The position numbers were made by a program, and so were the translations under genes. The notes beneath the pieces were generated by a model that was not told the origin of the DNA, ran no database searches, and was given only the letters and a program-made list of their open reading frames with translations. A stretch of DNA of 39,134 bases, from assembly GCA_964390735.1 (NCBI GenBank), contig CAYMIY010000004.1:1-39134 (forward strand), given 5' to 3'. Each line of letters starts with the position of its first letter. The first letter of the stretch is position 1. Positions 1 to 20,900 of the stretch are shown here, one piece after another. This stretch comes from an uncultured Gammaproteobacteria bacterium (GTDB lineage: Bacteria > Patescibacteriota > Microgenomatia > UBA1406 > GWC2-37-13).

Positions 1-636
1 GAACTCAGCCTCATACCAGAGGTAACACACAACGAGCTTCAGAAATATGAACACTCATTTGAGGTGGTGGAAGATAGGGATAATTTTGATTATATTCACG
101 AAATAAATGAGTTCATAAAAATGGAAGGTCCAGTATATCAAAAAAAACGCCAGTTATGCAGAAAATTCGAGAAAGAGAATAATTGGAAACTAGAGCTAGT
201 TACAGGAATTAATAAAGATATTGAAAATGAAATGCTAGAGTTATTCGATTTATGGCGAAATAGAAAATCGAATGACCTAAGTTTATTTAACAATGAATTT
301 AATGCCCTTAAAAATTGTTTAGCTTTGAATAAAGGGCATTATTTAGACATTTTTTTACTATATGTAGATAATAAATTAGTTGCCTTCACTATAAATGAGG
401 TAATAAAAGAGGAACATGTTATAGGACATTTCGCAAAGTTTAACACTTCATATAAAGGAGTGTGGGACTTTTTACTTCTAAAGACGAATGAATATTATAG
501 TAATTCAAACTTAAGATTCTTCAATCAACAGCAAGATCTAGGTATAGATTTACTAAGAAAATCAAAAGAACAGAATAGCAACCTTACTTTCTTAAAAAAA
601 TTTAGAATAGCAAAAAGTAAGCTTGACAATATATAG
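1..636 (+). CDS. DUF2156-like protein (MprF / lysyl-PG synthase C-terminal-domain fold), N-terminus outside the window
   Basis: Frame 1 is open from nt 1 (ELSLIPEVTHNELQKYEHSFE...) and runs into listed ORF 64-636. EDRDNFDYIHEINEFIKMEGPVYQKKRQLCRKF resembles the DYIY...L.G....KRN core I associate with DUF2156. TAG stop at 634-636. Confidence 0.5.
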   Translation, partial: ELSLIPEVTHNELQKYEHSFEVVEDRDNFDYIHEINEFIKMEGPVYQKKRQLCRKFEKENNWKLELVTGINKDIENEMLELFDLWRNRKSNDLSLFNNEFNALKNCLALNKGHYLDIFLLYVDNKLVAFTINEVIKEEHVIGHFAKFNTSYKGVWDFLLLKTNEYYSNSNLRFFNQQQDLGIDLLRKSKEQNSNLTFLKKFRIAKSKLDNI

Positions 637-649
637 TGTTTTTTATAAT
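623..649 (+). promoter_or_regulatory. Possible sigma70-type promoter for the 661-1473 gene
   Basis: TTGACA at 623-628 and TATAAT at 644-649. The spacer is only 15 nt, so this is weak. Confidence 0.3.
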
Positions 650-660
650 CTGGTATTGAT

Positions 661-1473
661 ATGAGTAAACAGAATAAAATTGATTTGAAAACAAAAATTA
701 CAATAATACTTTTTGGTATATTTGGTCTATTCTGGTTGTATAATTTTGTTTTTATTCCTAAAACAGATATAAAATATCAAATATTTTCTGCAGTATATGG
801 CTTGATTGCAATTTATGGAGGTATAAACGGATTACTTATTGCTCGAAAATGGGGTGGTAATAAAAGCTTAATAGGAAAAGCATTAATCTATTTTTCATTA
901 GGTTTATTTGCTCAAGAATTCGGACAATTAACCTATTCATTTTATGCTTATTATTTACATATTGAGATTCCTTATCCATCAATTGGAGACATAGGTTATT
1001 TTGGAAGTATCCCGCTGTATTTTCTAGGTTTAATTAATTTAGCTAGAGCTTCGGGGGTACATCTCGTATTAAAGTCATATACAAACAAGATACAAGCTAT
1101 CTTAATCCCTCTTATCTTGCTTTTCTTATCCTATGTTCTTTTTTTGAGTAACTATCATTTTGATTGGACTAGTCCATTAACAATATTGCTAGATTTTGGA
1201 TATCCAATGGGACAGGCTATATACATCTCTTTAGCGATATTAATATATTTATTAACAAGGAGACAATTAGGAGGTTTGATGAAACCTAAAGTATTATTAC
1301 TTCTCTTTGCATTGTTCATACAGTACCTATCAGATTATACATATATTTATTTAGCACATAAAAACGTAGTGTATGTGGGTGGTCCAAATGATTTCCTTTA
1401 CTTAATGGCATATTTTTTCATGAGTATTGCTTTATTACAATTCGATTCACTATTCAATGAAGTTAAGAAATAA
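661..1473 (+). CDS. Polytopic membrane protein (about 7-8 hydrophobic helices), stand-alone paralog of the C-terminal domain of the STAND protein at 1809-4139
   Basis: Hydrophobic segments run throughout. It shares WGG/WRG..SLIG, PYPSIGDI.YFGSIP.Y, KIQ..LIP, LDFGYP.GQ.IY and LLQFD motifs, in the same order, with roughly the last 250 aa of ORF 1809-4139. Confidence 0.8.
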   Translation: MSKQNKIDLKTKITIILFGIFGLFWLYNFVFIPKTDIKYQIFSAVYGLIAIYGGINGLLIARKWGGNKSLIGKALIYFSLGLFAQEFGQLTYSFYAYYLHIEIPYPSIGDIGYFGSIPLYFLGLINLARASGVHLVLKSYTNKIQAILIPLILLFLSYVLFLSNYHFDWTSPLTILLDFGYPMGQAIYISLAILIYLLTRRQLGGLMKPKVLLLLFALFIQYLSDYTYIYLAHKNVVYVGGPNDFLYLMAYFFMSIALLQFDSLFNEVKK

Positions 1474-1515
1474 TAACGATGAGATGACGAATTATATAGT
1501 TTGTGGCAGTATAAT

Positions 1516-1788
1516 ATGAATTCATATGAAGAAGCAGTTGATAAAATAATTCAAGAACAGCAGCTTATTATTGGCCCACTTGCTTTTAGTCAGGCTAGTA
1601 AAGTTAATGGTATCACTATTGATGGAGAAAAAGTAACACTTACTGGAAATGGAAAAGAAATATTAAATAACTTAGTAAACAGATATTCAGAATTTTTTGG
1701 GCAAGCCTCAATAGAAGTATGTAAAGATGCCGTTCGTGATATTACAGCAAAAATGAAACCAGAGGAAATACCCGATTCCTTAAAATAA
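1516..1788 (+). CDS. Small hypothetical soluble protein (90 aa from ATG 1516; the listed ORF begins at TTG 1501)
   Basis: Open frame lying between the membrane protein gene and the STAND gene on the same strand. No motif recognised. Confidence 0.55.
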   Translation: MNSYEEAVDKIIQEQQLIIGPLAFSQASKVNGITIDGEKVTLTGNGKEILNNLVNRYSEFFGQASIEVCKDAVRDITAKMKPEEIPDSLK

Positions 1789-1808
1789 GTTCGCACAAAA
1801 CTACTCCC

Positions 1809-4139
1809 ATGTCAGAGAAAACCTACCTAGAAAGCTTTGCTTATTATTTTAAGCGGTATAGATTTAAAGCTAATATATCCACACTTAGACAGTTTGCAGA
1901 TCTTATGGCTGCTGAGGGACTATATTATGACGTAAGTAACTACACTCGATGGCAGAATGGCGAAAGGATACCCAATGATAGAAAAATACTACTAGGTATG
2001 ATTCGCGTGTTTATAGATAAGAATGCTATAAGCACAGTTGAGGACTGTAATATATTTTTACATGCCGCGAAACAACTACCGCTAAAAAAAGGTGAAATAA
2101 GTAACTTGCAGGTATTTAAAGAAAGTATTAGAAATATGCTGCCAATAGTTTTAGACGATTTTGTAGGGAGAGAAGATTTTTTGAAAGATATAAATTGGAG
2201 ACTGATAACTTATAACAAAATTTGTATAACAGGAACAGCGGGAATTGGCAAGACTAGTTTTGTTATATATTTAGCGTATCTGCTTCAGAAAACGTTTCAG
2301 GAAGGTGTTTTTTATTTCCGAGTTGATATACAGTATATAGATACTATTTTGCTTGATATAGCGCGTTTTTATGGAGAAGATGTTAGCACAATAAAGGGAT
2401 TAAATGATAGGTTAATTTTCGTAATGAGTATCTTAAAAAGCAAAAAGACTGTTATTATACTTGATAATATTGACAATTATAAAAACATAGATAGTCTTAT
2501 AAAATCACTTGATGGATATTGTAAGTTTATACTTGTATCACAATACTCACCTCCCTTGTATCGTGATTCATATCATTTTAATTTATCTGGATTCAGTGAG
2601 ACAGAGACGTTACAATTGGCCGAGCACAAACTTGGAGAAGAGTATGTAAGGAATAATAGGGCTGAAATACTAGAAGTTGCTAAATTATCAGGATATTCAC
2701 CTCTTGCTCTTGATATTATGTTTAGTTATCTTGACACTCAGAGAATTAATGCAAAGGAACTTCTAGAAAAAATAGATAATATAATGCTGCCGATCACTTA
2801 CCAAAGCACATATGATAATAAAACTGTTGCGTCCTCAATAGAAATAAGCTTATCAACTCTAGAAAATAATGAAAAAAAAGTAGTATCTTCTTTATCTATG
2901 TTTGAAGGAACGGATATTAGTATAAGTGCTTTAAGGTCAATCCATAATATTCGTGAAGAAGAAATACGCAAAATTTTAGCAAGATTGATTGATTTATCAC
3001 TCATAGAAAGGTCAAAAACTGATAGGGTTAGAATTCATCCACTCGTAAGAACATACCTCAGACAAAAAGTAGTCTCTTACAAATGGTATCTACTATTAAC
3101 TAAGTATTACCTTCATTTGAATAATTTTGAGTACGAACTTGACAATATAAGAGGCGTAATGCAATATCTGAGTTTAAATAAACAATCAAACAGCTTAGTT
3201 AGTCTATGGAATAAAGTGGCGGTCTCATTATTAGAGGAAGGTAGATATGAAGATATAAAAACATATAAAGATATGTTGCAAAATATTGCTTATAGAGACA
3301 CTTTACCCACAATAATTTTAATACTTATAACGCTTATATACCTTCTTGCTGGATTTTTTGTATTAGTAAATCCAAATCATAGCAAGTTCTTTTCAATGAT
3401 TTACTGGCCAATAGCGAGTTACGGTCTGATCTATGGATATGTTATATACCGAAAGTGGAGAGGTTTTAGTAGTTTAATAGGTAGATCAATTTTTTTGTTT
3501 ATACTTGGGCTTACATGTCAGGTACTAGGACAGATATTATATTCTATCCTAACAATAATGGAATCGAACATTACTCCGTATCCATATCCGTCAATAGGCG
3601 ATATCGCATACTTTGGCAGTATCCCCATGTACATAATTGCAACAATCTTACTAGGACAAGCTATAGGTATTAAAATAACGTTAAGATCCTTGAGTAGTAA
3701 AATTCAATCTGTACTTATTCCAATATTTATATTAACCGCTTCATATACTGTATTTTTAAAAGATTATTATTTTGATTTCTCAAATATTCCAAAAATAATT
3801 TTGGATTTTGGTTATCCATTGGGCCAATCTATTTATTTATCTTTTATAATATTGATCTTTGTTTTATCACAACAATATCTGCTTCCTATATTAAGAAAAG
3901 GCATTTTCTTAATTATGATAGCATTAGCCATACAGTTTACAGCGGACTTTATTTTCTTGTATCGTTTTAGCCACAATATGTGGAATATCTCAGGAGATTT
4001 TGGTGACCTGATATATCTTTTAGCCTATGCTACCATGGGTTTTGCGCTTCTTCAATTTGATTACACTTACAAACTCAAGAAGCTTAATAATACCGATTTG
4101 TTCACGAAAGTGAAGAAATACATCTTTTCAACTTCCTAA
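1809..4139 (+). CDS. HTH / NB-ARC-type STAND NTPase fused to a C-terminal multi-pass membrane domain
   Basis: N-terminal XRE-like HTH segment (ISTLRQFADLMAAEG..DVSNYTRWQNGERIP). FVGREDFL...ITGTAGIGKTS is a Walker A, KTVIILDNID a Walker B, GYSPLALDIM is GLPLAL-like, and RVRIHPLVRTYL sits at the MHD-like position. The C-terminal ~270 aa are hydrophobic helices paralogous to ORF 661-1473. Confidence 0.75.
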   Translation: MSEKTYLESFAYYFKRYRFKANISTLRQFADLMAAEGLYYDVSNYTRWQNGERIPNDRKILLGMIRVFIDKNAISTVEDCNIFLHAAKQLPLKKGEISNLQVFKESIRNMLPIVLDDFVGREDFLKDINWRLITYNKICITGTAGIGKTSFVIYLAYLLQKTFQEGVFYFRVDIQYIDTILLDIARFYGEDVSTIKGLNDRLIFVMSILKSKKTVIILDNIDNYKNIDSLIKSLDGYCKFILVSQYSPPLYRDSYHFNLSGFSETETLQLAEHKLGEEYVRNNRAEILEVAKLSGYSPLALDIMFSYLDTQRINAKELLEKIDNIMLPITYQSTYDNKTVASSIEISLSTLENNEKKVVSSLSMFEGTDISISALRSIHNIREEEIRKILARLIDLSLIERSKTDRVRIHPLVRTYLRQKVVSYKWYLLLTKYYLHLNNFEYELDNIRGVMQYLSLNKQSNSLVSLWNKVAVSLLEEGRYEDIKTYKDMLQNIAYRDTLPTIILILITLIYLLAGFFVLVNPNHSKFFSMIYWPIASYGLIYGYVIYRKWRGFSSLIGRSIFLFILGLTCQVLGQILYSILTIMESNITPYPYPSIGDIAYFGSIPMYIIATILLGQAIGIKITLRSLSSKIQSVLIPIFILTASYTVFLKDYYFDFSNIPKIILDFGYPLGQSIYLSFIILIFVLSQQYLLPILRKGIFLIMIALAIQFTADFIFLYRFSHNMWNISGDFGDLIYLLAYATMGFALLQFDYTYKLKKLNNTDLFTKVKKYIFSTS

Positions 4140-4146
4140 ATTCATT

Positions 4147-4184
4147 TGTCAACTTTCTTGACACATTTGTCAATTTTATTGACA
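4147..4184. promoter_or_regulatory. Two tandem 17-bp palindromes TGTCAA-N5-TTGACA (candidate operator pair) upstream of the hydrolase gene
   Basis: TGTCAActttcTTGACA at 4147-4163 and TGTCAAttttaTTGACA at 4168-4184. Their centres are 21 bp apart. ATG of the next gene is at 4209. Confidence 0.5.
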
Positions 4185-4208
4185 GATATTCTGTTTTAAT
4201 AGATCCAT

Positions 4209-4742
4209 ATGCATATATTATTTTTGACAGGTAATAACCAACGCAACGTGGAGTGGGCTCAAACACTCAAAAGTAAATTTGAACAGGTGGGGTATACGGC
4301 TTCGCTTATATACTCAGATACGTGGAAGATGGATACGTATGGAGATTTGGATATGTCCTATGAGTTCGAGGAATCAGCCAGGATCCTGAAAGGAATAAAG
4401 GATTATATCATTTGTTCAATTTCAACAGGGGGATTAATAGCACTAAAAGGTATGTATGAAAAGATATATTCTCCACAAAAATGTATATGTATCGGTATAC
4501 CTATTGTGTGGGGGTATGACAGATTCTCACACGAAAATGCATGGCTGGAACATTTGCATGTTCCTTCACTCTTTATTCAAAAGAACGCAGACCCGATTAC
4601 ATCTTCAGGAATGCTCAAGCGAATTCTCAAAAAAATGAACGTGCAAAACAGTAGACTGCATGAACTGGTAGGGCATACGCATACCTATAACGAAACGGAC
4701 GAGATTTTTGAGGAGTGTGTGGAATTCTTAGCTTCAAAATAG
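4209..4742 (+). CDS. Small alpha/beta-hydrolase-fold-like protein (177 aa)
   Basis: ILFLTGNN start, nucleophile-elbow-like CSISTGG, and late acidic (NADPI) and His (GHTH) residues in the usual order. The last ~15 codons (NETDEIFEEC.EFL) are repeated downstream as fragments. Confidence 0.6.
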   Translation: MHILFLTGNNQRNVEWAQTLKSKFEQVGYTASLIYSDTWKMDTYGDLDMSYEFEESARILKGIKDYIICSISTGGLIALKGMYEKIYSPQKCICIGIPIVWGYDRFSHENAWLEHLHVPSLFIQKNADPITSSGMLKRILKKMNVQNSRLHELVGHTHTYNETDEIFEECVEFLASK

Positions 4743-4752
4743 TCCTATAGTA

Positions 4753-4781
4753 TTGACAATTTCTGCTTTTTTTTATATAAT
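4753..4781 (+). promoter_or_regulatory. Consensus sigma70-type promoter of the first GC-rich cassette
   Basis: TTGACA at 4753-4758, 17-nt spacer, TATAAT at 4776-4781. It is preceded by CCTATAGT at 4744-4751, a module shared with the cassettes at 8373 and 9792. Confidence 0.6.
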
Positions 4782-4805
4782 TAGAACATAAACTGCAGAC
4801 TAATA

Positions 4806-10311: not shown

Positions 10312-13116
10312 ATGAGTTCTTTCAGTAGCTATATTGTAATGGTGTCTTTTGTGATGACATCGATACTCTCGCTCATTGTCTATATTAACAATCCGAAATC
10401 GTGGACAAACAGACTTCTCTGTATGCTTGGCAGCATGCTGGCATACATCATTCTGTTCAATTATTTTGCAGTCACTGCAGAAACTGAAGTACAACGCGTA
10501 TTCTGGATACGATCCATCATGGCAATTACGTCGATTATACCAATCACCATGATTGTGCTGGCGCACACATTCCCGGAACGAGAAATAACTCTCAATAAAT
10601 ACTTCATTTTTTCAGGTATTTGTTTTTCACTTGCACTTGGCGTACTTTCTTATACTGAACAGATAATATCTCATTACACTCGAAGTGATCTTATCGCTCC
10701 GTTTATCCCTGGTTTATCTACCTTGTTGTATGGTATCTATTTTGCGACTTCCATGATATTAGCCATACTTATGTTATTTAAGAAGTATAAACATAGTGTT
10801 GGGATAGCACGTATGCAGATCAAATATTTCATCCTGGGTGTATTCCTGGTTTGGGGATTGATATTCGTTGCAAACATTATGTTTGTCGTTATACTTAAAA
10901 CCGTAGATTTTACGCTTTATGGACCTTCGATATCATTTATTCTTGTTGGACTTCTGACATATGCAATACTCAGACATCGATTTCTCGATGTCAGGATGGT
11001 TGCCATGAGATCGATCGTATATCTCATGGTAGGATTACTCCTAAGCATAGCATATGCGCTCAGCCTTTTTACTCTACGACTTTTTGTTTTCAATATACCA
11101 ATCAATCTATATAACCTGTTTACCTCTACGGTGCTTGCGTTAATTATGGCATATAGTTTTCATCCTCTGAGTAAGTTTTTTAAATCGCTTACTGATAAAT
11201 ACTTTTTTAAAAGTGGATATGATTCGAATAAACTGCTACGCATACTCGGAAGAATAATGTCATCAACCTATGTTCTTGCTGACTTAACGGATCTTATTTT
11301 GCATCAAATAATGCAGACGTTAAAAATATCATCCGGATATATCGTTCTTATTAAAGATGCAAAGATCACGTGGCATAAAGTGAACGGAGACAAGGAAGCG
11401 GATCTGAAAGATAATGAAATAGACTACCTTATCCAGGCAGCTCATATGAAAAAAACAGAAAACGTACTCATTTTCGAAGAAATGGAAGAAGAAAAAGAAA
11501 AAGAGATAATGAGAAAGTATCACGTCAGTATCGTTTTACCACTCATTGTAAAAAATGAAGTAATTGGAGGCATGCTTCTGGGGCCCAAAGAATCGGGTGA
11601 TATGTATTCAGTGGAAGACATTAACATTCTCAAAATCATAACGCCGGAGATTGCGATGGCCATTCAAAACTCCGAGTCATACGAAGAGATCAAAACATTT
11701 AACATGACTCTCGAAAACAAAATAGAACAGGCTACTGATGAGTTTAGACAGATCAATGAGGAAGTATATAAAAAAAATCTCGAACTCGCAGAGCGTAACA
11801 AAACACTCATGCTCTTGAGACAAATTGATGAAGTCGTACTGAGCTCAGTTACTGATACCAAGCAGATAGGACAGAAAGTAGTTGACCTCATAGCAGAAAC
11901 TGCTCATTTTAGATTTGTCATGATTTCAGTTATCGACAAAGAACATAAAAAAATAAACGATCTGGCGATTGCTGCGCAGAAAAATAATCTTCCTGCAACT
12001 CTTGTCGCGGGGAATATGAGTATTTCAATGTACGATGAATCAAATCTGATCGTCAAATCGATACGCCACAAAACAATCGAACGTACAACAAAAGGGAGTG
12101 AAATACTCGGAACAATACCCATACAAGAGCATATTAATGAATGGGTCGCATACCCCATGGTTGTTCGTGGCGAGGCAATGGGAGCGTTGGTGATCGGACT
12201 CGAGAAAGGTTATGCAGAGCTGAGTGAATATCAGAAGGATCTTATAGATCGGTTAGTAAGTGTTATAGGGATTTCACTTGATAACGCAGTCCTGTATCAG
12301 ACACTTCAGGATGCCAATGAGCGGCTCAAGCAGATTGATTACATGAAGGATGAATTCGTTTCAGTCGCATCACATGAACTGAGAACACCGATGACGGCAA
12401 TCAGATCCTACTTATGGCTTGCATTATCAGGAAAAGGTGGCGAACTCACCGAAAAGCAGAAATTCTATCTTGAAAGATCATATAACTCCACAACCCGTCT
12501 TATTAAGCTGGTAAACGACATGTTGAATGTATCTAGAATTGAGTCCGGACGTATGAGTTTTGAGATGCAAGAGGTAGACATGGCAAAACTGACTGATGAA
12601 GTGATCGGAGAAGTAAAGCCACGCGCTGATGAACTCGGGGTGATTCTCCGCGTCGAAAAAGCGTTATCTCAGTTACCCCATGTAGTAGCCGACCCTGACA
12701 AAATAAAGGAAGTAATGATTAATTTCATTGGTAATGCATTTAAATTTACGCCTAAAGAAGGAGAAATCGTTGTTCATTTCAAAATAGAAGGACAGGAACT
12801 TGTAACCACAGTAACAGATACGGGTGAAGGCATCGCAAACGATGATATAAGCAAACTATTCCAGAAATTCAGCCTCGTCAAAGGATCGTATCAGACTAAC
12901 CAGCAGGCATCACAGGGAACAGGCCTTGGCTTGTATATTTCAAAATCAATTATTACTGAACACCAAGGAAAGATCTGGGCTGCTTCACCCGGTCGGGGAA
13001 AAGGTGCGACATTTGGATTTACATTACCATTGTTTACTGAAAATATGCTTGCCATGATGAAAGAAGCCCACGGGGGAAGCGATAGTGGTCTGGGCATTAT
13101 TCACACGGAAATATAG
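10312..13116 (+). CDS. Sensor histidine kinase: N-terminal 7TM-type membrane domain, two GAF-like regions, HisKA and HATPase_c domains
   Basis: H-box FVSVASHELRTPMTAIRSY, N-box INFIGNAFKFTP, G1 VTDTGEGI, G2 GTGLGLYISKSI. The N-terminal ~300 aa are hydrophobic, with YINNPKSWTNRL as seen in 7TM kinase N-domains. No response regulator gene is in the window. Confidence 0.9.
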   Translation: MSSFSSYIVMVSFVMTSILSLIVYINNPKSWTNRLLCMLGSMLAYIILFNYFAVTAETEVQRVFWIRSIMAITSIIPITMIVLAHTFPEREITLNKYFIFSGICFSLALGVLSYTEQIISHYTRSDLIAPFIPGLSTLLYGIYFATSMILAILMLFKKYKHSVGIARMQIKYFILGVFLVWGLIFVANIMFVVILKTVDFTLYGPSISFILVGLLTYAILRHRFLDVRMVAMRSIVYLMVGLLLSIAYALSLFTLRLFVFNIPINLYNLFTSTVLALIMAYSFHPLSKFFKSLTDKYFFKSGYDSNKLLRILGRIMSSTYVLADLTDLILHQIMQTLKISSGYIVLIKDAKITWHKVNGDKEADLKDNEIDYLIQAAHMKKTENVLIFEEMEEEKEKEIMRKYHVSIVLPLIVKNEVIGGMLLGPKESGDMYSVEDINILKIITPEIAMAIQNSESYEEIKTFNMTLENKIEQATDEFRQINEEVYKKNLELAERNKTLMLLRQIDEVVLSSVTDTKQIGQKVVDLIAETAHFRFVMISVIDKEHKKINDLAIAAQKNNLPATLVAGNMSISMYDESNLIVKSIRHKTIERTTKGSEILGTIPIQEHINEWVAYPMVVRGEAMGALVIGLEKGYAELSEYQKDLIDRLVSVIGISLDNAVLYQTLQDANERLKQIDYMKDEFVSVASHELRTPMTAIRSYLWLALSGKGGELTEKQKFYLERSYNSTTRLIKLVNDMLNVSRIESGRMSFEMQEVDMAKLTDEVIGEVKPRADELGVILRVEKALSQLPHVVADPDKIKEVMINFIGNAFKFTPKEGEIVVHFKIEGQELVTTVTDTGEGIANDDISKLFQKFSLVKGSYQTNQQASQGTGLGLYISKSIITEHQGKIWAASPGRGKGATFGFTLPLFTENMLAMMKEAHGGSDSGLGIIHTEI

Positions 13117-14050: not shown

Positions 14051-17000
14051 TTAAAATCTACCTTTTGTCAGGAATATGAAGGGCCTTTTATCTGCTTTCT
14101 GCATAAAACCAGGTACCCATGAGCTTGTAAATGTCTGAGTATTTCCTGGTGCATTGGGGAGAGACTTATCGCTCAGCTTGAGTTTTTCCATTTGTAGTTT
14201 TTCAAATTTGAAATTGCCGCATGTCTGTGCAGTCCCTAAGGTATAAAAAGTGCTGGGTGCATAGGTATTGTTGTAGCCCGTAGCTAACCAGTCGCTGGAA
14301 CGTGCATTATCAGAGATACGCACTTCATCTATCGTACCCTGTGCAAACTGGCCTGAAGAGCGAGAGCCTATAAATAAGTCAGAAGTAGAATTACCTATTC
14401 CTGATGTATATGCGGAGGTTGCAGGGTTTGAAAAAGTACCTGCATCCCCTTTGTATATATTTACATTCGAGTTATCACTTGTGCATGCAACATAATACCA
14501 GGTATTAAGATTAAAGTTGGCAGAGTCATTTGCATTTCCCGTACTTGCGCCATTAAACACCGAGCAATTAAATTTGGGACCTGTTGTATTTTCACGCAAG
14601 CGATAACCGTTACTTGCACCTGTTTCTTTATCGATCAGACTAGAGGAACTTCCTCCTACGGCTGTAGCATAGTTCCATACTTCAAACGTAATTGTATTTG
14701 TTCCATTCATATCAAGTCCTGTTTGAGTCCCGTCAGTTATAGTAAGTTTATTTGCGGCCCCGTCAAATCCGCCAGCTCCATCAATCTGTCCAGTAACAGC
14801 AGTTGTAGATGTTCCATCTGTTAGGCCATTATTATTACCGGTAGAATCTTGTCTAGTGCTATTGGTAGACTCCGATAAATGCCATACACCTTTATAATTT
14901 GAGTTCCATAACGATGTGGGATTGGCCAGACTTGATGCGTTTGCTGAATTACCATAGAAAATATAAATAGTAGTGTCAACACTGTTACTCAATGATGGAA
15001 TATTAACCCAGGCAATAAGTGATCCCGTAGTGTTTGTGTACTTTTCGATTTCAAAGTAAAGAATGGTTCCCGTAGAATCAGTGAAGACAATATCTGCTCC
15101 ATCAGATCTTGCTATTGATGCAAGATTACTATCATTCGATATAGAAATCATTACGGGAAAATTGGTAAGTGAAGAGCCTCCAGAGACTTTCGTATGGTCT
15201 ATGACTATTGATTTTCGTGTGCTCCACGCCGAATTATACCAGTTGGAAAAACATTGAGAAACGGGCGTAGGACCTGCCGGGGTAGGCGTCGGTGTAGCAG
15301 TGGCTGTCGGAGTAGGGGTGAATGTAGCGGTTGGTGTGGGTGTGTTGGTTGCGGCAAGAGGTGATTGAATTTCAACTGCAACGATAGAATAATCCACAGC
15401 ACCGCTAAATGTACCGTCCGTAGTAAGATTAGTAGAGGCAGATGCAAATGGCTTATCACTCACTTCCAGACCCGCAGTATTTCCTGTTGCACCTGACTGT
15501 ATATCTGTTCTTTCTGTCCACCCTGAACCCGGTGTAGTTGTACGAGCGCGTTCACCTACGGCTAGAAAAACATACGCATTATCACGACTTGTGTCCATAG
15601 TTGTATATGAGAATGATGTTGCATCATCAGCAGAATCAGTACCGGTACATGTAGATGTTCCTGCAGAATTTGATCCGTGCGTGTTGTATGAATCAAAGTT
15701 ACCTATAGGGTCAGTCGTATCAGTTCCACTATATCTGGCCACAGCAATGGCCGCACCTAAAGGTGCAGAGCTGAAATTTGCGGTTACGGCCCCATTGCCC
15801 GATACGGTGCCCAGTGCATACCAGACCTCTGTGCGTACTTGTTGTCTCCAGCTACACTGTGCCTGCACAAGATTCCACGTTAATCCAAGTCCGCTTACGG
15901 AGCTGACAGATTGATTAGGTTTAGTAGATACAGCGGCAAGATAAAGTTGGTTATTTACCCCTGTAATTGTTGCTGATGCAATAGATGTGCTTCCCGGCTC
16001 TGCCGTATTTGTCTGAATTTCCAGAAAACTGATAGCATCAGAAGCTATCTGCCAGCGACGTATTTCACCCGCAATAAGTTGGTTCCCTGATTTATCATAT
16101 AGTTCTAGAGGTCCAAGTAAAAAAAACTGGGGAGATATATCAGGAGCATCATATATATATCCAATCGTGATATTGTCACCTTTCTTGAATGATCCGTACC
16201 AAGAAATTACATGTGTATGATCTATTTTTGTAACTGAACTATATGGCAGGTTTGTACCCTGAAGAGGGGTAACTACGAATGAGTCAGGGGTATATTCTTT
16301 AATGGTACCTTCGTAATCTTCGTTTATTTTTATATGTATCTTTACTGTGTAAGCCTTTTCAGGGAAAATACGGGTAGCTGTTTCTCTCTCTATATCATAT
16401 GGGGTAGACGGGCGTACTTCAAATGAATCGCTGATTGCGTAACTCCCTTTACTGGTTGTGGCATTTAATGTCATCTGGTATGTGCCGGGAGCGGTTGTTT
16501 TGTAAGATGTTTCGAAATCTGGTTTATATGTCTGGTCTTTGGTGTGACACTCAGGATTTATTTTAATTGTGTCATTTCCCGTTGACACTTCTGTATTTGT
16601 TCCATACGGGTCCTTTATGCGTAGTTTTACATCGGCATCGCATACCATATTTCCCTGTTCATCGAGAACGGCGATAGCTAAAAACGCTGTTTCGTTTGGC
16701 ATAAATATAGACTTATTGGGGTTGATAGCAAGTACACCCCAGCTAAAGTCTTGTTCAAATTTGTTGTTACGATTATTTACTATCAGCTTATACTTTCCCG
16801 GACGGAAAAATCGGGGAGTACCGATCTGTATCTGGGCGTCGCCATTTTGTTGCATTTTGATAGTATATGATACATCTTCCTTTTTGCCAAACCCATTCAG
16901 AATAAGTATATTCTTTTTTAAGTCGGACGTGTTATATTCGGATGGAACAGTAATAACAGGATTCTGTTGAGGAGTATACTCGTGAACAGGGTCTCGTATC

Positions 17001-17170
17001 TCTGCATCATGTCTCAACCATATGATTGCTACAAAAAAAGGTATCGCGATAAGCATGGTCATCAAAATGATTTGCAGATTGCCTTTTTTCGACAGATGGT
17101 GTTTCAGTTTACTGTGCGTCGACATAGAGATATGAGTGATGTTTGTGGACTGTAGATACAGTCTCAGCAT
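14051..17170 (-). CDS. Large membrane-anchored surface protein: N-terminal TM, beta-rich region, PT linker, DUF2341-like and LamG/ConA-like lectin domains
   Basis: TM segment LQIILMTMLIAIPFFVAIIWL. Linker TNTPTPTATFTPTPTATATPTPTP. WSTRKSIVIDHTKV...NFPVMISI...DIVFTD...YFEIEKY...AWVNIP..TIYIFYGN is DUF2341-like. The segment starting GVWHLSE and containing DSTGNNNGL, FDG, TFEVW and IDEVRIS is LamG-like. The start could instead be ATG 17125. Confidence 0.75.
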   Translation of the reverse strand: MLRLYLQSTNITHISMSTHSKLKHHLSKKGNLQIILMTMLIAIPFFVAIIWLRHDAEIRDPVHEYTPQQNPVITVPSEYNTSDLKKNILILNGFGKKEDVSYTIKMQQNGDAQIQIGTPRFFRPGKYKLIVNNRNNKFEQDFSWGVLAINPNKSIFMPNETAFLAIAVLDEQGNMVCDADVKLRIKDPYGTNTEVSTGNDTIKINPECHTKDQTYKPDFETSYKTTAPGTYQMTLNATTSKGSYAISDSFEVRPSTPYDIERETATRIFPEKAYTVKIHIKINEDYEGTIKEYTPDSFVVTPLQGTNLPYSSVTKIDHTHVISWYGSFKKGDNITIGYIYDAPDISPQFFLLGPLELYDKSGNQLIAGEIRRWQIASDAISFLEIQTNTAEPGSTSIASATITGVNNQLYLAAVSTKPNQSVSSVSGLGLTWNLVQAQCSWRQQVRTEVWYALGTVSGNGAVTANFSSAPLGAAIAVARYSGTDTTDPIGNFDSYNTHGSNSAGTSTCTGTDSADDATSFSYTTMDTSRDNAYVFLAVGERARTTTPGSGWTERTDIQSGATGNTAGLEVSDKPFASASTNLTTDGTFSGAVDYSIVAVEIQSPLAATNTPTPTATFTPTPTATATPTPTPAGPTPVSQCFSNWYNSAWSTRKSIVIDHTKVSGGSSLTNFPVMISISNDSNLASIARSDGADIVFTDSTGTILYFEIEKYTNTTGSLIAWVNIPSLSNSVDTTIYIFYGNSANASSLANPTSLWNSNYKGVWHLSESTNSTRQDSTGNNNGLTDGTSTTAVTGQIDGAGGFDGAANKLTITDGTQTGLDMNGTNTITFEVWNYATAVGGSSSSLIDKETGASNGYRLRENTTGPKFNCSVFNGASTGNANDSANFNLNTWYYVACTSDNSNVNIYKGDAGTFSNPATSAYTSGIGNSTSDLFIGSRSSGQFAQGTIDEVRISDNARSSDWLATGYNNTYAPSTFYTLGTAQTCGNFKFEKLQMEKLKLSDKSLPNAPGNTQTFTSSWVPGFMQKADKRPFIFLTKGRF

Positions 17171-17991: not shown

Positions 17992-20900
17992 TCAATTCAC
18001 AATCCACCAGTTGAAGGTGATATCTGTTGGCATTGGCCCGCCTGAGATTGAGACTTTGAAATATGGTTTACAAGCTGTATCACCTTCGGCGCAGGTATGC
18101 TTGTCAGCGACAAACAAATTCTTGTTCTGGAGTGCAGAGGTAGATGTCACATAAATCAGGGAACCTGTCTTTACTTTCTCGTTATAGATAATGATCTCAC
18201 TCTGACTGGCAGGTAGTCGACCGACACCGATTGTCTTGCGATTCGTTTGCAAGGCAGGTGCATAAATACCGTTATTGGTAAAGTTTGTTGCGGCAGGAAT
18301 CACGGCCGCAGAATTTGTGGCATCAAGGTATTTATCGAGTGACAGATCTTTAAATTGTGCAGATCCTGATGCATCGATTGAAGCTACTTCCAGTCCCTGA
18401 TTATTCTGGACGGCTAATTTTGTATTTTGTACGTCCGGCTGACCGGCCACATCACTTGAAGCTAATTTCACATTTATATTATCATTCGGTATGATTGCTT
18501 CGATGATATTTGTTTTAACACCACCTTTTGCGATGATTGTTCCCTGTGTGGTTATAGTACCATCCTTAGCAATGACTACACCTCCGTCAAATAGATTGAT
18601 CGTTGAGAGTGATGAGAGCTTCAATTCCCATGAAAGTGAGAGAATACTTCCATCAGTGATTATCATACTACCGACTGATAGGTTGTGGGCAATTGAGACA
18701 TCATACATATTCGCATTATCGGTGACCGTGAGTTTTTCCAGATTTATAGCACTTGCTTGCGTAGCCACACTTACGGGTTGATTCAGGTTTTGATAATATG
18801 ATGGATCGGGGAGTGGTTGATTCTTAAGATCGGTTAATATCTTCTGAATATCGTTTACATTGGTGCTCAATTGCTGCAGATTCGAAGATTGACTTGCGAT
18901 TGAGTTCTGCGTGAGACCAAGATTATTTGCCAATGCATCGATATTATCAGCTTTGATTTCTTTTGCGGTAAGAGTTCCTGATACCGAAGCTTCATTCGTA
19001 TTCAGCGAACCCGCTGCTAACTGACCAGATATACTTGCCTCTTTTGTTTCTACTTTATGTGATGTAACTGTGCCACTAAAAGTTGCATTACCTGCGGCAT
19101 CAAGAGTGGTGACAGTTTTCCCTTCCATACCCTTAATAATGACGTTCGCGAGTGCACCCTGATTGGTTGGATTGCTCAGGTCGATGGTAATTGTGTCTTC
19201 CTGTGGCTTAATCGTATTCGTCTCGACATTATTAATCTGAGCAGTATCTCTTACGTTCAGATTATCTGTTTCCACAACAGGTGATGTAATCCTTTCTGAC
19301 ACCGTAAGCCTTTGGATCGTTCCATCAAGTGCGGTAAAGGATGTGGACGTGAGTGATATAAACGAACCAGTTGCAGACTTAATTGAAGTTGCCAGTATAG
19401 TCTTCGCTGACAACATATTACTCACGATCGCATTCTGTGTATCGGTTAACCCTGTGAGAATTGTGCCGGCAACTACTTTTGCGTAACCGGTTGTTGCACT
19501 GAGCACATCGCCGCTTGCGTTGGTTACAGTTGAGGCTGTGGCGCGAGTGACCGTAACCTGTCTATCATAGTCTGGCTGAGGTAAGAGTGCATTCTGACTC
19601 TGTGATAAGGTGAGCGTTCCGTCAGAATTAATTGCTACCTGAGGATCGTACCATGTTAAGTTAGTAAATACGAGTATTTTTCCTACTTTATTTGTATCCT
19701 GCTCAGTATAGCTTTCAAGCGCCTTACCGATAACAATTCCGGGCGTAATTGCTTTTACAGCTACACCAGGTATAGTGGAAGTAGTTAAGTAATCACCTTC
19801 ATAAATAGGACCATTTTGAGTAGATACTTTAGTGGGTATACGTCCATTTAAAGCTAGTTTAGCCACATTTATATAGTCATCTGAGCCAAGTGTTATTCCC
19901 GGACTTGTAGAAATAATACCCATTACTTTTGAGTCATGCTGTACGGTTGATTTATTTAATCTTCCGTTATCAATTTTTACGATGTCTCCCGGTTCAAGTA
20001 TTACACCGGGGGTTGTTGGATAATTCTCAGCTATATCAGCACGATCGATCATATTACCTGAAGTATTACTTGTAGGTATGGTAGGTCCAACTGAGCCCGT
20101 TGGAGGATCATCTTGCCATGTTCTTATGTAATCCACATCATGAGTTGCTGCTGTTCCCGTGGATTCGGTACGGGCAAATAAGTCCATAGCATTGCCTGTA
20201 CCTGGGAGAGTAGCAGTAACCGAGACAGATGTTCCATCAACACTACATACAACCTGTGGAGTAGAACCGTTCATAATCTGAACTCTTAAATTCTGAAAAG
20301 CGCTTGTAGAAATATTTACCCCTGTAGAAGTAAATGTTTCACTACTAGCATTTGCTGTCACACACTGCCATACCGTATCCGCGGCTCTTTTACCAATCCA
20401 TGCATGACGTGAACCGGTGTTTGCATCACTTGTTGGAAGCGCTGATGAAAAACCAAAGAATGCTCTCTGTGTACTAGCAGTAGAGCCCATTTTTATAGCA
20501 GCTTCGTATACTGGATTGTTATCCTGTTTATAAAATCCGTTTGTAAGAGTACTTTGTGAGCTGAGTGAACATCCTGCACCTGCCGTACTACTTGAAGTCA
20601 CCATACGGAAGACGCCACCAACAACTCCTGCTGTAAACGTGCTACTACATGACGCTCCTGTACCTACTACAGGAGAGGTCCATCTGTTTGTTGTATCAAG
20701 TACTTTTCCTGTAAAGTCGTCCTGAAATGTATTAATTCCTTGCTGATTCACCATTCCTCTTACGAGCTCAAGATCAAAAAAACCCGTACCACCATTTTGC
20801 ATATTTAATCTTGTCCAGTTGTTCTGAGAAGTGGACGCGATATTTCCTATATTCATGGTTACTGTATTTCCTGTATTGGCATTTGTTGTATCCAAATATA

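What the first reader, a model, noticed from the sequence alone, without database searches (positions are those of the whole stretch)
661..4139. NB-ARC STAND ATPase with an N-terminal HTH and a C-terminal 7-8-TM domain, plus a free-standing copy of that membrane domain upstream
STAND NTPases normally carry soluble repeat sensors (TPR, WD40, LRR) at the C-terminus. Here the position after the winged-helix/MHD-like region (RVRIHPLVRTYL) is occupied by a polytopic membrane domain. That domain has a stand-alone paralog at 661-1473 (shared PYPSIGDI.YFGSIP.Y and LDFGYP.GQ.IY). The protein could be a membrane-embedded one-component switch, with the HTH as output and the membrane domain as sensor. Alternatively it could be an Avs-like defence protein with a membrane-disrupting effector.
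Basis: partly seen in the sequence, partly recalled or inferred. Interest (0 to 1): 0.6.

Follow-up and report, generated by a model that had tools for sequence, protein, structure and literature searches.

The report
Membrane-embedded NB-ARC gene regulator of CPR bacteria
This gene of an ultra-small (CPR/Patescibacteria) bacterium joins a probable DNA-binding head and an Apaf-1/plant-NLR-type ATP switch to an undescribed eight-helix membrane sensor domain. The same sensor domain normally feeds a histidine kinase, so the gene is probably a membrane-anchored transcription switch and not an immune protein.

Summary
ORF 1809-4139 (776 aa) is an intact, conserved fusion. It has an N-terminal five/six-helix HTH-like domain, an NB-ARC-type STAND module (AfsR E 2e-20; Apaf-1 fold E 7e-11), a four-helix arm and an eight-TM domain. 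That domain is 43% identical (E 5e-56) to the free-standing ORF 661-1473.

The eight-TM family ('TM8') has no Pfam model. It is the first gene of a conserved CPR cassette: LPG_synthase_C | TM8 - 95-aa protein - soluble GAF histidine kinase (72/80 and 59/80 species loci). Natural fusions exist (TM8+95aa; TM8+95aa+GAF+kinase; HTH+TM8). TM8 is therefore a signalling input domain.

The palindrome TGTCAA-N5-TTGACA, 10 nt upstream of a -10-like hexamer, recurs in front of the HTH-bearing gene in at least six diverged lineages. In this window it sits in tandem before the small hydrolase gene. This supports a membrane-anchored STAND transcription regulator (about 70%). An Avs-like defence role is unlikely (about 4%).

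The HTH assignment, the ligand and the sign of regulation are inferred. The flanking genes and an outer-face aspartate cluster hint at amines or envelope charge as the signal.

Earlier reports of this scan described the same family on other DNA. I found no published description. Specific to this window: the regulator occupies the kinase's slot, the region is a low-GC island, and the operator controls a hydrolase gene.

The parts
1..636 (+). 3' part of a stand-alone LPG_synthase_C (DUF2156, MprF synthase-domain-like) gene, cut by the contig end
   Evidence: Pfam PF09924 E 5.4e-22. The same family lies next to the TM8 gene in 73 of 80 CPR species loci.
661..1473 (+). Free-standing TM8 protein (270 aa, eight TM helices), the membrane input subunit of the split sensor kinase cassette
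   Evidence: ORF. More than 650 homologues of 262-303 aa at 48-59% identity, none with a Pfam domain. Followed by the 95-aa gene in 72/80 loci. Predicted to bind the 95-aa protein through its cytoplasmic loops.
1501..1788 (+). Small soluble 'connector' protein (95 aa from TTG 1501; more likely 90 aa from ATG 1516, as in L003). No known family.
   Evidence: 42% identical to the 94-aa gene after TM8 in L005. Fused C-terminally to TM8 in P0136, and between TM8 and GAF-HisKA-HATPase in P0139. 89-91% identical among window, L003 and L004. No Pfam.
1809..2123 (+). N-terminal HTH-like domain of the STAND protein (residues 1-105), the probable DNA-binding output
   Evidence: AF2 helices 10-20, 26-35, 42-49, 58-70, 77-86 and 94-99 at pLDDT 88-96. 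Language-model neighbours are all HTH_3/HTH_31/HTH_26 clusters, scores up to 0.85. A distant relative (P0006) carries HTH_31 at residues 4-68, its N-terminus, although the hhalign comparison with it failed. No Pfam hit for this copy.
2136..3068 (+). NB-ARC-type nucleotide-binding oligomerisation module (residues 110-420: NBD, HD1, winged helix). Walker A GTAGIGKT at 2232-2255; MHD-like His410-Pro411.
   Evidence: AfsR NOD NCBIfam E 7.3e-25. PDB 8K60 E 1.9e-20. Foldseek Apaf-1 1z6t E 7e-11 and NRC1 NB-ARC TM 0.72. Invariant G142, G145, G147, K148, D219, P298, H410, P411 in alignment A1.
3078..3296 (+). Four-helix 'arm' between the winged helix and the membrane domain (residues 424-496)
   Evidence: AF2 helices 424-435, 441-456, 460-476 and 480-496. 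Shared with the HTH-NB-ARC-TPR relatives P0004/P0005 and absent from P0145/P0186.
3303..4079 (+). TM8 domain of the STAND protein (residues 499-757, eight TM helices, N-in/C-in), the presumed sensor
   Evidence: 43% identical to ORF 661-1473. AF2 pLDDT 90.9 alone and 89.5 in the full-length model. Positive-inside count 10 against 1. Conserved polar residues on the outer half.
4147..4163 (.). Operator palindrome 1, TGTCAA-CTTTC-TTGACA
   Evidence: Exact. Invariant in L003 and L004.
4168..4184 (.). Operator palindrome 2, TGTCAA-TTTTA-TTGACA. Its centre is 21 bp from palindrome 1. It is followed after 10 nt by the -10-like TTTAAT (4195-4200), with the ATG at 4209.
   Evidence: The same palindrome-N10-TAnAAT geometry precedes the HTH-bearing genes of L004, L105, L106, L046, L070, L036/L041 and L056.
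4209..4742 (+). 177-aa small alpha/beta-hydrolase-like gene, the presumed target of the operator pair
   Evidence: ORF. Weak Hydrolase_4 match, E 0.0049. Conserved after the STAND gene in L003 and L004.
10312..13116 (+). Histidine kinase (HisKA_7TM, GAF x2, HisKA, HATPase_c), probably the kinase of the cassette, now separated by inserted genes
Evidence: Pfam. 44% identical, E 7e-96, to the kinase that directly follows TM8 and the 94-aa gene in L005.

Best explanation
ORF 1809-4139 encodes a membrane-anchored STAND transcription regulator, a one-component signalling protein. Its order is the AfsR logic (DNA-binding head, NB-ARC switch, arm, sensor), but the soluble TPR sensor is replaced by an eight-helix membrane domain, TM8.

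Proposed mechanism (inferred):
1. In the resting state the TM8 domain and the arm hold the ADP-bound NOD closed.
2. A signal perceived at the outer face or outer leaflet of TM8 releases this lock. A cluster of near-invariant Asp, Gln and Tyr residues lies there.
3. Nucleotide exchange and NOD-driven self-association follow.
4. The N-terminal HTH-like domains are brought together on the tandem TGTCAA-N5-TTGACA operators that overlap the -35 region of the hydrolase promoter.
5. In most other lineages the same operator lies on the regulator's own promoter.

The free-standing TM8 (661-1473), the 95-aa connector (1501-1788) and a GAF histidine kinase form the ancestral three-piece sensor kinase of the same cassette. 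The regulator is therefore a second, direct-to-DNA output for the same kind of input.

Shown: the architecture, its conservation, the paralogy, the cassette and its fusions, and the co-occurrence of operator and HTH domain.

Inferred: DNA binding, ATP-dependent switching, the signal, and whether binding activates or represses.
For: Architecture and reality of the fusion.

NB-ARC module:
- AfsR NOD E 7.3e-25 and PDB 8K60 E 1.9e-20.
- Apaf-1, plant NLR and MalT folds.
- Invariant Walker A, Walker B Asp, GxP and His-Pro motifs.

TM8 as a signalling input:
- Order TM8 - small protein - soluble GAF kinase in 59/80 species loci, and TM8 - small protein in 72/80.
- Natural fusions TM8+connector (P0136), TM8+connector+GAF+HisKA+HATPase (P0139), TrmB-HTH...TM8 (P0130) and HTH+TM8 without a NOD (L056).
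- Nearest predicted folds are the membrane domains of GGDEF and histidine-kinase proteins, TM 0.67-0.74.
- HTH-NB-ARC-TPR relatives have TPR where this protein has TM8.

DNA binding:
- The palindrome occurs 4 times in the genome, against a mean of 0.21 for 180 permuted half-sites.
- The 46-nt operator block is invariant in L003 and L004, although the STAND proteins are only 59-68% identical.
- The module palindrome-N10-TAnAAT-start precedes the HTH-bearing gene in L004, L105, L106, L046, L070, L036/L041 and L056. In one clade both half-sites change symmetrically (TGTCAG...CTGACA).
- The genome holds only one copy of this HTH-like domain.

Topology places both ends of TM8 in the cytoplasm. That fits attachment to the NOD by its N-terminus and to the connector or kinase by its C-terminus.
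Against: - No Pfam HTH model matches the N-terminal domain in this protein or eight relatives.
- A profile comparison with the HTH_31 region of P0006 failed, hhalign probability 2%.
- The best PDB sequence hit of the HTH type is a POU-specific domain at only E 0.1.
- In this window and in L003 there is no operator in front of the regulator's own gene.
- The operator centre lies near -31 relative to the inferred start. That suits a repressor better than the activator role typical of STAND regulators, so the sign is open.
- The sensor-I arginine is Gln in this clade (VSQ), so hydrolysis may be weak.
- Another operator-type promoter precedes an ImmA/IrrE-type peptidase gene on a contig that is cut 44 nt upstream. 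An unseen XRE repressor could be the binder there.
Confidence: 0.7

Rival explanations
1. TM8 is primarily a transporter or membrane enzyme. It could be the lipid- or amine-handling partner of the neighbouring LPG_synthase_C-like enzyme, i.e. a split MprF-like system. The kinase and STAND fusions would then monitor its activity, as co-sensing transporters such as BceAB-BceS or LysP-CadC do. Alternatively the STAND ATPase regulates transport rather than transcription.
For: LPG_synthase_C is adjacent to TM8 in 73/80 loci. EamA transporters and amino-acid or SAM decarboxylases are frequent neighbours. There is a weak fold resemblance to the YhhN family, TM 0.60. TM8 has conserved intramembrane polar residues, as transporters do.
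Against: None of 95 members matches any transporter or LPG_synthase_TM model. No MprF or transporter fold appears among the best PDB matches, which are generic 7TM bundles at Z up to 12.2. The nearest predicted folds belong to signalling proteins. The fusion partners are all signalling or DNA-binding modules. Even under this reading TM8 would still be the input of the STAND protein.
Confidence: 0.12
2. The STAND protein is not the protein that binds the palindromes. The sites would be bound by another regulator, for example an XRE repressor paired with the ImmA/IrrE-type peptidase, or they would be plain promoter elements. The N-terminal domain would be a protein-interaction module.
For: No profile detects an HTH. 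TTGACA is also the sigma-70 -35 consensus. One operator-type site precedes a Peptidase_M78 gene whose upstream partner is lost at the contig end. An exact copy inside EamA genes occurs in genomes without this domain.
Against: The palindrome sits 10 nt from the -10-like hexamer, so its TTGACA arm cannot serve as a -35 at the canonical 17-nt spacing. It precedes the gene carrying this very domain in at least six lineages down to 34% identity, including an HTH-TM8 protein without a NOD, and the half-sites change symmetrically. The EamA copies coincide with a conserved VN(Y/F)IDK peptide, so coding constraint can explain them.
Confidence: 0.1
3. The protein is an Avs/bNACHT-like antiphage STAND whose membrane domain is a membrane-disrupting effector, activated on sensing a phage protein.
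For: STAND NTPases are common defence sensors, and bacterial NACHT proteins with C-terminal TM regions are described (bioRxiv 10.1101/2022.07.19.500537, read). The region is a low-GC island.
Against: PADLOC gives only one non-significant hit, E 0.0048. Defence STANDs carry the sensor C-terminally and the effector N-terminally, whereas here the N-terminus is HTH-like. TM8 is a conserved, mostly single-copy component of a kinase cassette across CPR classes. The gene keeps a fixed signalling and amine-metabolism neighbourhood in unrelated lineages.
Confidence: 0.04
4. The long ORF is an artefactual fusion of two genes, by misassembly or a sequencing frameshift.
For: None beyond the unusual architecture.
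Against: The same uninterrupted architecture occurs in more than ten independent assemblies at 32-68% identity.
Confidence: 0.01

Closest known systems
AfsR of Streptomyces coelicolor (SARP - NB-ARC/NOD - arm - TPR; PDB 8K60, 8JKE; PMC10936776) and, by architecture, MalT and GutR (from my own knowledge)
   Same: Domain order DNA-binding head, NOD, arm, sensor. The NOD matches AfsR at E 1.9e-20 over residues 110-418. The AfsR paper describes autoinhibition by the C-terminal domains and activation by ATP (read).
   Different: The head is an XRE-like helical bundle, not a SARP/OmpR-type or LuxR-type domain. The sensor is an eight-helix integral membrane domain instead of soluble TPR repeats, so the whole switch is tethered to the membrane. 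The operator is a 17-bp palindrome rather than direct repeats.
Transmembrane transcription regulators (one-component, membrane-bound): BcrR, AguR, CadC, ToxR (census in PMC10269533)
   Same: A DNA-binding domain and a membrane-embedded sensor in one polypeptide that acts on promoters from the membrane. [quoted passage not shown] That it has an N-terminal HTH and several TM helices is my recollection.
   Different: None of these has a STAND/NB-ARC switch between head and membrane domain. A search of the census text found no occurrence of 'NB-ARC'. The L056 protein (HTH+TM8 without a NOD) is the form closest to BcrR.
Membrane-embedded input domains of histidine kinases and diguanylate cyclases (MASE-type domains, HisKA_7TM)
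   Same: A polytopic, ligand-unknown membrane domain placed before cytoplasmic transmitter modules. TM8's nearest predicted folds are such domains of actinobacterial GGDEF and kinase proteins.
   Different: No sequence relation to any Pfam family or to the HisKA_7TM region of the window's own kinase, hhalign probability 0.4%. TM8 is usually a separate polypeptide joined to its kinase through a 95-aa connector.
Bacterial NACHT/Avs defence STANDs with TM regions (bioRxiv 10.1101/2022.07.19.500537)
   Same: A STAND NTPase with transmembrane segments in the C-terminal region.
   Different: NB-ARC/AfsR-type rather than NACHT. HTH-like N-terminus instead of a toxic effector. Conserved housekeeping-like signalling context. 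No PADLOC match.

Membership tests
STAND NTPase, NB-ARC (AP-ATPase) clade | P-loop NTPase with Walker A GxxxxGK[ST] and Walker B hhhhD | tested here: met
   GTAGIGKT at residues 142-149 and IILD at 216-219. G142, G145, G147, K148 and D219 are invariant in nine diverged homologues.
STAND NTPase, NB-ARC (AP-ATPase) clade | Helical domain with a GxP (GLPL-like) motif and a winged helix ending in an MHD-like His | tested here: met
   SGYSPLAL with invariant P298. RIHPLVRTYL with invariant H410-P411. The model shows the NBD, HD1 and WHD secondary structure.
STAND NTPase, NB-ARC (AP-ATPase) clade | Significant profile or structure match to NB-ARC proteins | tested here: met
   Pfam NB-ARC is only 18.5-21.9 bits against a cut-off of 23.5 for this copy. 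But: AfsR NOD E 7.3e-25, PDB 8K60 E 1.9e-20, Apaf-1 Foldseek E 7e-11, and same-architecture relatives at 40-63 bits.
STAND NTPase, NB-ARC (AP-ATPase) clade | Sensor-I arginine (TTR/TSR motif) | tested here: not met
   This clade has VSQ (Gln245). P0156, P0164 and P0186 keep an Arg after the invariant Ser (TSR, TSR, LSR). This bears on hydrolysis rate, not on fold membership.
XRE/Cro-C1-type helix-turn-helix domain (HTH_3 / HTH_31) | Profile match to an HTH model | tested here: not met
   No HTH family at E <= 5 for this protein or eight relatives. hhalign against the P0006 HTH_31 region gives probability 2%. POU-specific domain E 0.1 only.
XRE/Cro-C1-type helix-turn-helix domain (HTH_3 / HTH_31) | Five-helix bundle fold | tested here: inconclusive
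   The AF2 model gives five to six short helices at high confidence, and the language-model neighbours are all HTH_3/HTH_31/HTH_26 at scores up to 0.85.
XRE/Cro-C1-type helix-turn-helix domain (HTH_3 / HTH_31) | Binds a palindromic operator as a dimer | not testable with these tools
   Indirect support only: the palindrome co-occurs with genes carrying the domain in at least six lineages.
Transmembrane transcription regulator (one-component, membrane-bound) | DNA-binding domain and TM region in one polypeptide | tested here: inconclusive
   The TM region is firmly predicted. The DNA-binding domain is probable but not shown (see above).
Avs / bNACHT antiphage STAND | Match to defence-system models, toxic effector domain, defence-island context | tested here: not met
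   PADLOC best hit mad8 at E 0.0048. The N-terminus is HTH-like. The signalling and amine-metabolism context is conserved.
MprF flippase / LPG_synthase_TM | Sequence or fold similarity of TM8 to the MprF membrane domain | tested here: inconclusive
   No PF03706 hit in 95 members, and no MprF chain among the 50 best structural matches. Absence from a list does not exclude distant kinship.

The most novel reading that the evidence does not exclude
TM8 is an amine- or cation-sensing, receptor-like eight-helix domain that CPR bacteria wire to two outputs at once. One output is a split histidine kinase, reached through the 95-aa connector. The other is an NLR-type ATP switch that reads the membrane signal straight into transcription. 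The connector may dock on both TM8 paralogues, because its predicted docking loop (KWGG.KS) is kept in most of the STAND-fused copies (KWRGFSS in this one). This would be the first NLR/Apaf-1-type switch known to be gated by an integral membrane receptor. It would control envelope-charge or polyamine homeostasis in bacteria that depend on a host cell surface.
Probability: 0.25. Interest if true: 0.8.

Novelty: new variant of a known kind. Interest (0 to 1): 0.62.

Why it matters
STAND/NLR switches are thought of as soluble machines that read cytoplasmic ligands through repeat domains. Here the sensor position is taken by a polytopic membrane domain. If the model holds, an Apaf-1-type nucleotide switch can be driven from within the membrane and can deliver its output directly to DNA.

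The work also defines two protein families without any database model: TM8 and its 95-aa connector. These form one of the most conserved signalling cassettes of CPR/Patescibacteria, organisms with very few regulators whose sensing of their hosts is unknown.

The conserved operator-promoter module gives a concrete, testable regulon. The link to arginine and SAM decarboxylases, EamA transporters and an aminoacyl-lipid-synthase-like enzyme suggests what is being controlled.

Tried and rejected
- Pfam, NCBIfam and PADLOC on TM8 and the 95-aa protein gave no family.
- TM8 against the HisKA_7TM region of the window's own kinase showed no relation.
- TM8 against the soluble kinases of other cassettes showed no shared domain, so those kinases lack TM8.
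- PDB fold searches of TM8 gave only generic 7TM (GPCR/rhodopsin-like) superpositions: Foldseek E > 0.05, and VIA Z up to 12.2, below the level the tool calls meaningful for helical bundles.
- A profile of the N-terminal domain against PDB and against P0006's HTH_31 gave no convincing match.
- I first counted the exact palindrome inside the EamA-like gene on contig C43 as a fourth operator. I rejected it because the same sequence encodes a conserved VN(Y/F)IDK peptide, and it occurs exactly in genomes (L040, L062) where the HTH domain was not found.
- A recent local duplication as the origin of the fused TM8 is not supported. The two window copies are not sisters in the quick tree. The careful tree search and the one-clade test did not finish.
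- The search for related loci with the 95-sequence alignment failed for lack of a conserved stretch. It worked with 14 sequences.
- DNA of the P0004 and P0005 contigs was not available, so the operator could not be checked for the TPR-bearing relatives.

Full report
**Observation**

The window is the whole contig C4 of a 1.27-Mb, 120-contig genome, 87% complete. Its relatives by protein similarity are CPR/Patescibacteria, such as Roizmanbacteria, Levybacteria, Daviesbacteria and Saccharimonadales.

- 661-1473, 270 aa
- 1501-1788, 95 aa
- 1809-4139, 776 aa

They are preceded by the 3' part of an LPG_synthase_C-like gene (1-636) and followed by a 177-aa hydrolase-like gene (4209-4742).

The C-terminal part of the 776-aa protein is 43% identical over 246 residues to the 270-aa protein, E 5e-56. 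These are the only two copies in the genome.

**The fusion is real**

Full-length orthologues at 68% (P0002) and 59% (P0003) identity come from other samples. They show the same order: LPG_synthase_C, 270-aa, ~95-aa, 775-aa, 177-aa.

The same architecture occurs in much more distant proteins at 32-36% identity (P0156, P0164, P0145, P0186, P0212). It also occurs in species genomes L036/L041, L046 and L070. In L105 (P0164) the local order LPG_synthase_C - TM8 - 91 aa - STAND-TM8 is repeated.

**The NTPase**

Pfam NB-ARC covers positions 21-246 of 248 but scores 18.5 bits, or 21.9 on the six-frame search, under the 23.5 cut-off.

Stronger evidence comes from other sources:
- NCBIfam AfsR aligns residues 110-419 at E 7.3e-25.
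- AfsR chains 8K60/8JKE match at E 1.9e-20.
- The full-length AF2 model (pLDDT 89.5, pTM 0.70) hits Apaf-1 (E 7e-11), a STAND-TPR protein, plant NRC NB-ARC domains, CED-4 and MalT.
- Walker A, the Walker B Asp, the GxP proline and a His-Pro in the MHD position are invariant in nine homologues.
- Relatives with the same architecture pass Pfam's cut-off at 40-63 bits.

The sensor-I Arg is Gln in this clade.

**The membrane domain (TM8)**

An AF2 model built on 95 sequences has pLDDT 90.9 and eight long helices. In the full-length model these are residues 499-757.

With the N-terminus inside, cytoplasmic segments hold 10 K+R and outer loops hold 1. Near-invariant polar residues lie on the outer half: Q575, Y593-P-S595, D598, D666, P670, Q709, D713, D733 and Y740.

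None of 95 members matches a Pfam family. PDB searches give only generic 7TM superpositions. The ESM Atlas places TM8 next to unnamed membrane proteins and the membrane domains of GGDEF/HD and HisKA-HATPase proteins, TM 0.67-0.76.

**What TM8 normally does**

The free-standing form is a large family: more than 650 hits in one search and 350 clusters at 50% identity. It was found in 40 of 401 evenly sampled genomes of the phylum.

Gene order in 80 species loci:

| Feature | Loci |
|---|---|
| LPG_synthase_C-like gene adjacent to TM8 | 73 |
| TM8 followed by the ~93-aa gene | 72 |
| ...and then by a soluble GAF-HisKA-HATPase kinase | 59 |

Many of the remaining loci are cut by contig ends.

Natural fusions give the same picture:
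- P0136 is TM8 plus connector.
- P0139 is TM8 plus connector plus GAF plus HisKA plus HATPase, in gene order.

A complex prediction for the window's ORF270 with the 95-aa protein gave a median ipSAE of 0.75, with the best of three controls at 0.00. That mark was reached by 58 of 80 solved complexes and 2 of 110 mismatched pairs. The runs agreed in at least 98% of contacts, and the partner's pLDDT was at least 82. The contacts are the cytoplasmic loops of TM8 (63-72, 129-136, 199-208, 265-269) with the invariant IIGP and FFGQ motifs of the small protein. The model supports binding but does not show it.

TM8 is thus the membrane input of a three-piece sensor kinase.

**Other partners of TM8**

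- TrmB-type HTH (P0130).
- In L056, the same N-terminal domain as in the STAND protein, joined directly to TM8 without a NOD.
- Conversely, P0004 and P0005 have the same head and NOD with TPR repeats where this protein has TM8.

These swaps are what one expects of an input module and an output module.

**The head and its operator**

No HTH profile matches the N-terminal 105 residues. Three observations still point to an HTH:
- The model shows a compact bundle of short helices at high confidence.
- The nearest language-model clusters are all HTH_3/HTH_31/HTH_26, as leads only.
- A distant relative (P0006) carries HTH_31 at residues 4-68, its N-terminus, though the direct profile comparison with it failed.

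The stronger argument is comparative. The two exact palindromes TGTCAA-N5-TTGACA at 4147-4163 and 4168-4184 have centres 21 bp apart. They lie in a 46-nt block that is invariant in L003 and L004, while the flanking coding DNA diverges. In the genome the palindrome occurs 4 times, against a mean of 0.21 for 180 permuted half-sites.

The second palindrome is followed after exactly 10 nt by a -10-like TTTAAT, and 8 nt later by the hydrolase ATG. The same module (palindrome, 10 nt, TAnAAT, 6-12 nt, start codon) stands in front of the gene that carries this head domain in several loci:
- L004
- L105 (P0164)
- L106 (P0156)
- L046 and L070
- L036/L041
- L056

In the L046/L070/L036 clade both half-sites are changed symmetrically (TGTCAG gaaag CTGACA). 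The 10-nt spacing excludes the TTGACA arm as a -35 hexamer.

The genome has a single copy of the head domain. I therefore regard the head as the operator-binding domain, inferred at about 80%.

In this window and in L003 the regulator's own promoter lacks the site, and the controlled gene is the hydrolase. A further module of the same geometry precedes a Peptidase_M78 (ImmA/IrrE) gene on contig C119.

**Context and possible signal**

Genes within 5 kb of TM8 in the 80 loci:

| Neighbour | Loci |
|---|---|
| Pyruvoyl arginine decarboxylase | 40 |
| SAM decarboxylase | 16 |
| Either decarboxylase | 56 |
| EamA transporter | 57 |
| Receiver domain | 49 |

In L046 the regulator gene is followed by arginine decarboxylase and EamA. 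In L056 it is followed by EamA. In L070 it is followed by an EamA-like gene and an NNMT/PNMT-type methyltransferase.

Together with the outer-face aspartates, this suggests a cationic amine, or envelope charge or pH, as the signal. It also suggests aminoacyl-lipid and amine metabolism as the output. This is inference only, and I put it at about 35%.

**This window's peculiarities**

The first 4.8 kb have 31.3% G+C, the lowest of 363 such windows in a genome of 39.9% (sd 1.8). L004 shows the same switch. TM8 was not found in the two sampled genomes of the same family, the one of the same order, or the listed genomes of the same class. The cassette may therefore have been acquired laterally.

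The cassette's kinase is not adjacent. A kinase 44% identical to cassette kinases lies at 10312-13116 and carries an extra HisKA_7TM and a second GAF domain. Earlier notes on this window describe a gene-cassette island inserted between the hydrolase gene and this kinase. I did not re-test that.

In the quick tree the fused TM8 domains fall into at least three clusters, and the window's two copies are not sisters.

**Comparison with what is known**

The protein works like AfsR, MalT or GutR in layout: head, NOD, arm, sensor (PMC10936776). It also resembles transmembrane transcription regulators such as BcrR or AguR, in acting from the membrane (PMC10269533).

A search of that census for 'NB-ARC' found no occurrence. 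The bacterial NACHT survey mentions TM-containing C-terminal regions only for NACHT defence proteins. I found no published description of TM8, of the connector or of this fusion.

Within this scan the same family was reported before on other DNA (e1-1007816, e1-1106881, e1-2176605), as was the three-piece kinase (e1-5098492, e1-5063222). My tests were made independently of those notes and agree with them.

**Verdict**

- This is a new variant of known kinds (STAND transcription regulators and membrane-bound one-component regulators), built on an undescribed membrane sensor family.

Noticed in passing
own genome contig C119:44-60 and ORF 92-610 (locus L024): A third promoter of the operator type (TGTCAA-tttaa-TTGACA, 10 nt, TATCAT, then ATG) precedes a Peptidase_M78 (ImmA/IrrE-type) gene. 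Such peptidases usually cleave XRE-type repressors, so proteolytic control of the STAND protein's head is conceivable. The contig is cut 44 nt upstream, and an unseen repressor gene cannot be excluded.
   Followed up: partly
own genome contig C43:889-905 (locus L023); also L040, L056, L062: An exact TGTCAA-N5-TTGACA lies 50 nt inside an EamA-like gene, next to SAM decarboxylase and a receiver gene. It encodes a conserved VN(Y/F)IDK peptide. It recurs exactly in genomes where the HTH domain was not found, so it is probably a coding coincidence rather than an operator.
   Followed up: yes
window 1-4800: This is the lowest-GC 4.8-kb stretch of the whole genome (31.3% against 39.9%, sd 1.8), and the orthologous contig L004 shows the same switch. 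TM8 was not found in the sampled genomes of the same family, order or class. This suggests lateral acquisition of the cassette.
   Followed up: partly
window 1501-1788 versus L003:1786-2055 and L004:2028-2327: The 95-aa connector is 89-91% identical among the three orthologous loci, while the STAND protein is only 59-68% identical. In the quick tree L004's free-standing TM8 does not group with the window's. The cassette seems to evolve as a mosaic.
   Followed up: no
window 10312-13116: The kinase related to the cassette kinases carries its own HisKA_7TM membrane region and two GAF domains. This differs from the soluble kinases that follow TM8 and the connector in the other CPR loci examined (L005, L007).
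   Followed up: partly
loci L005, L006, L007, L046, L056, L070 and 80 survey loci: The TM8 cassette is embedded in a conserved neighbourhood: receiver genes, pyruvoyl arginine decarboxylase or SAM decarboxylase, an EamA transporter and an LPG_synthase_C-like enzyme. This points to amine and envelope-charge metabolism.
   Followed up: partly
window 14051-17170 and 17992-26616, minus strand: Very large ORFs of 1039 aa (Laminin_G_3 and DUF2341 domains) and 2874 aa lie downstream. They are probably surface proteins. The 2874-aa ORF was not examined.
   Followed up: no
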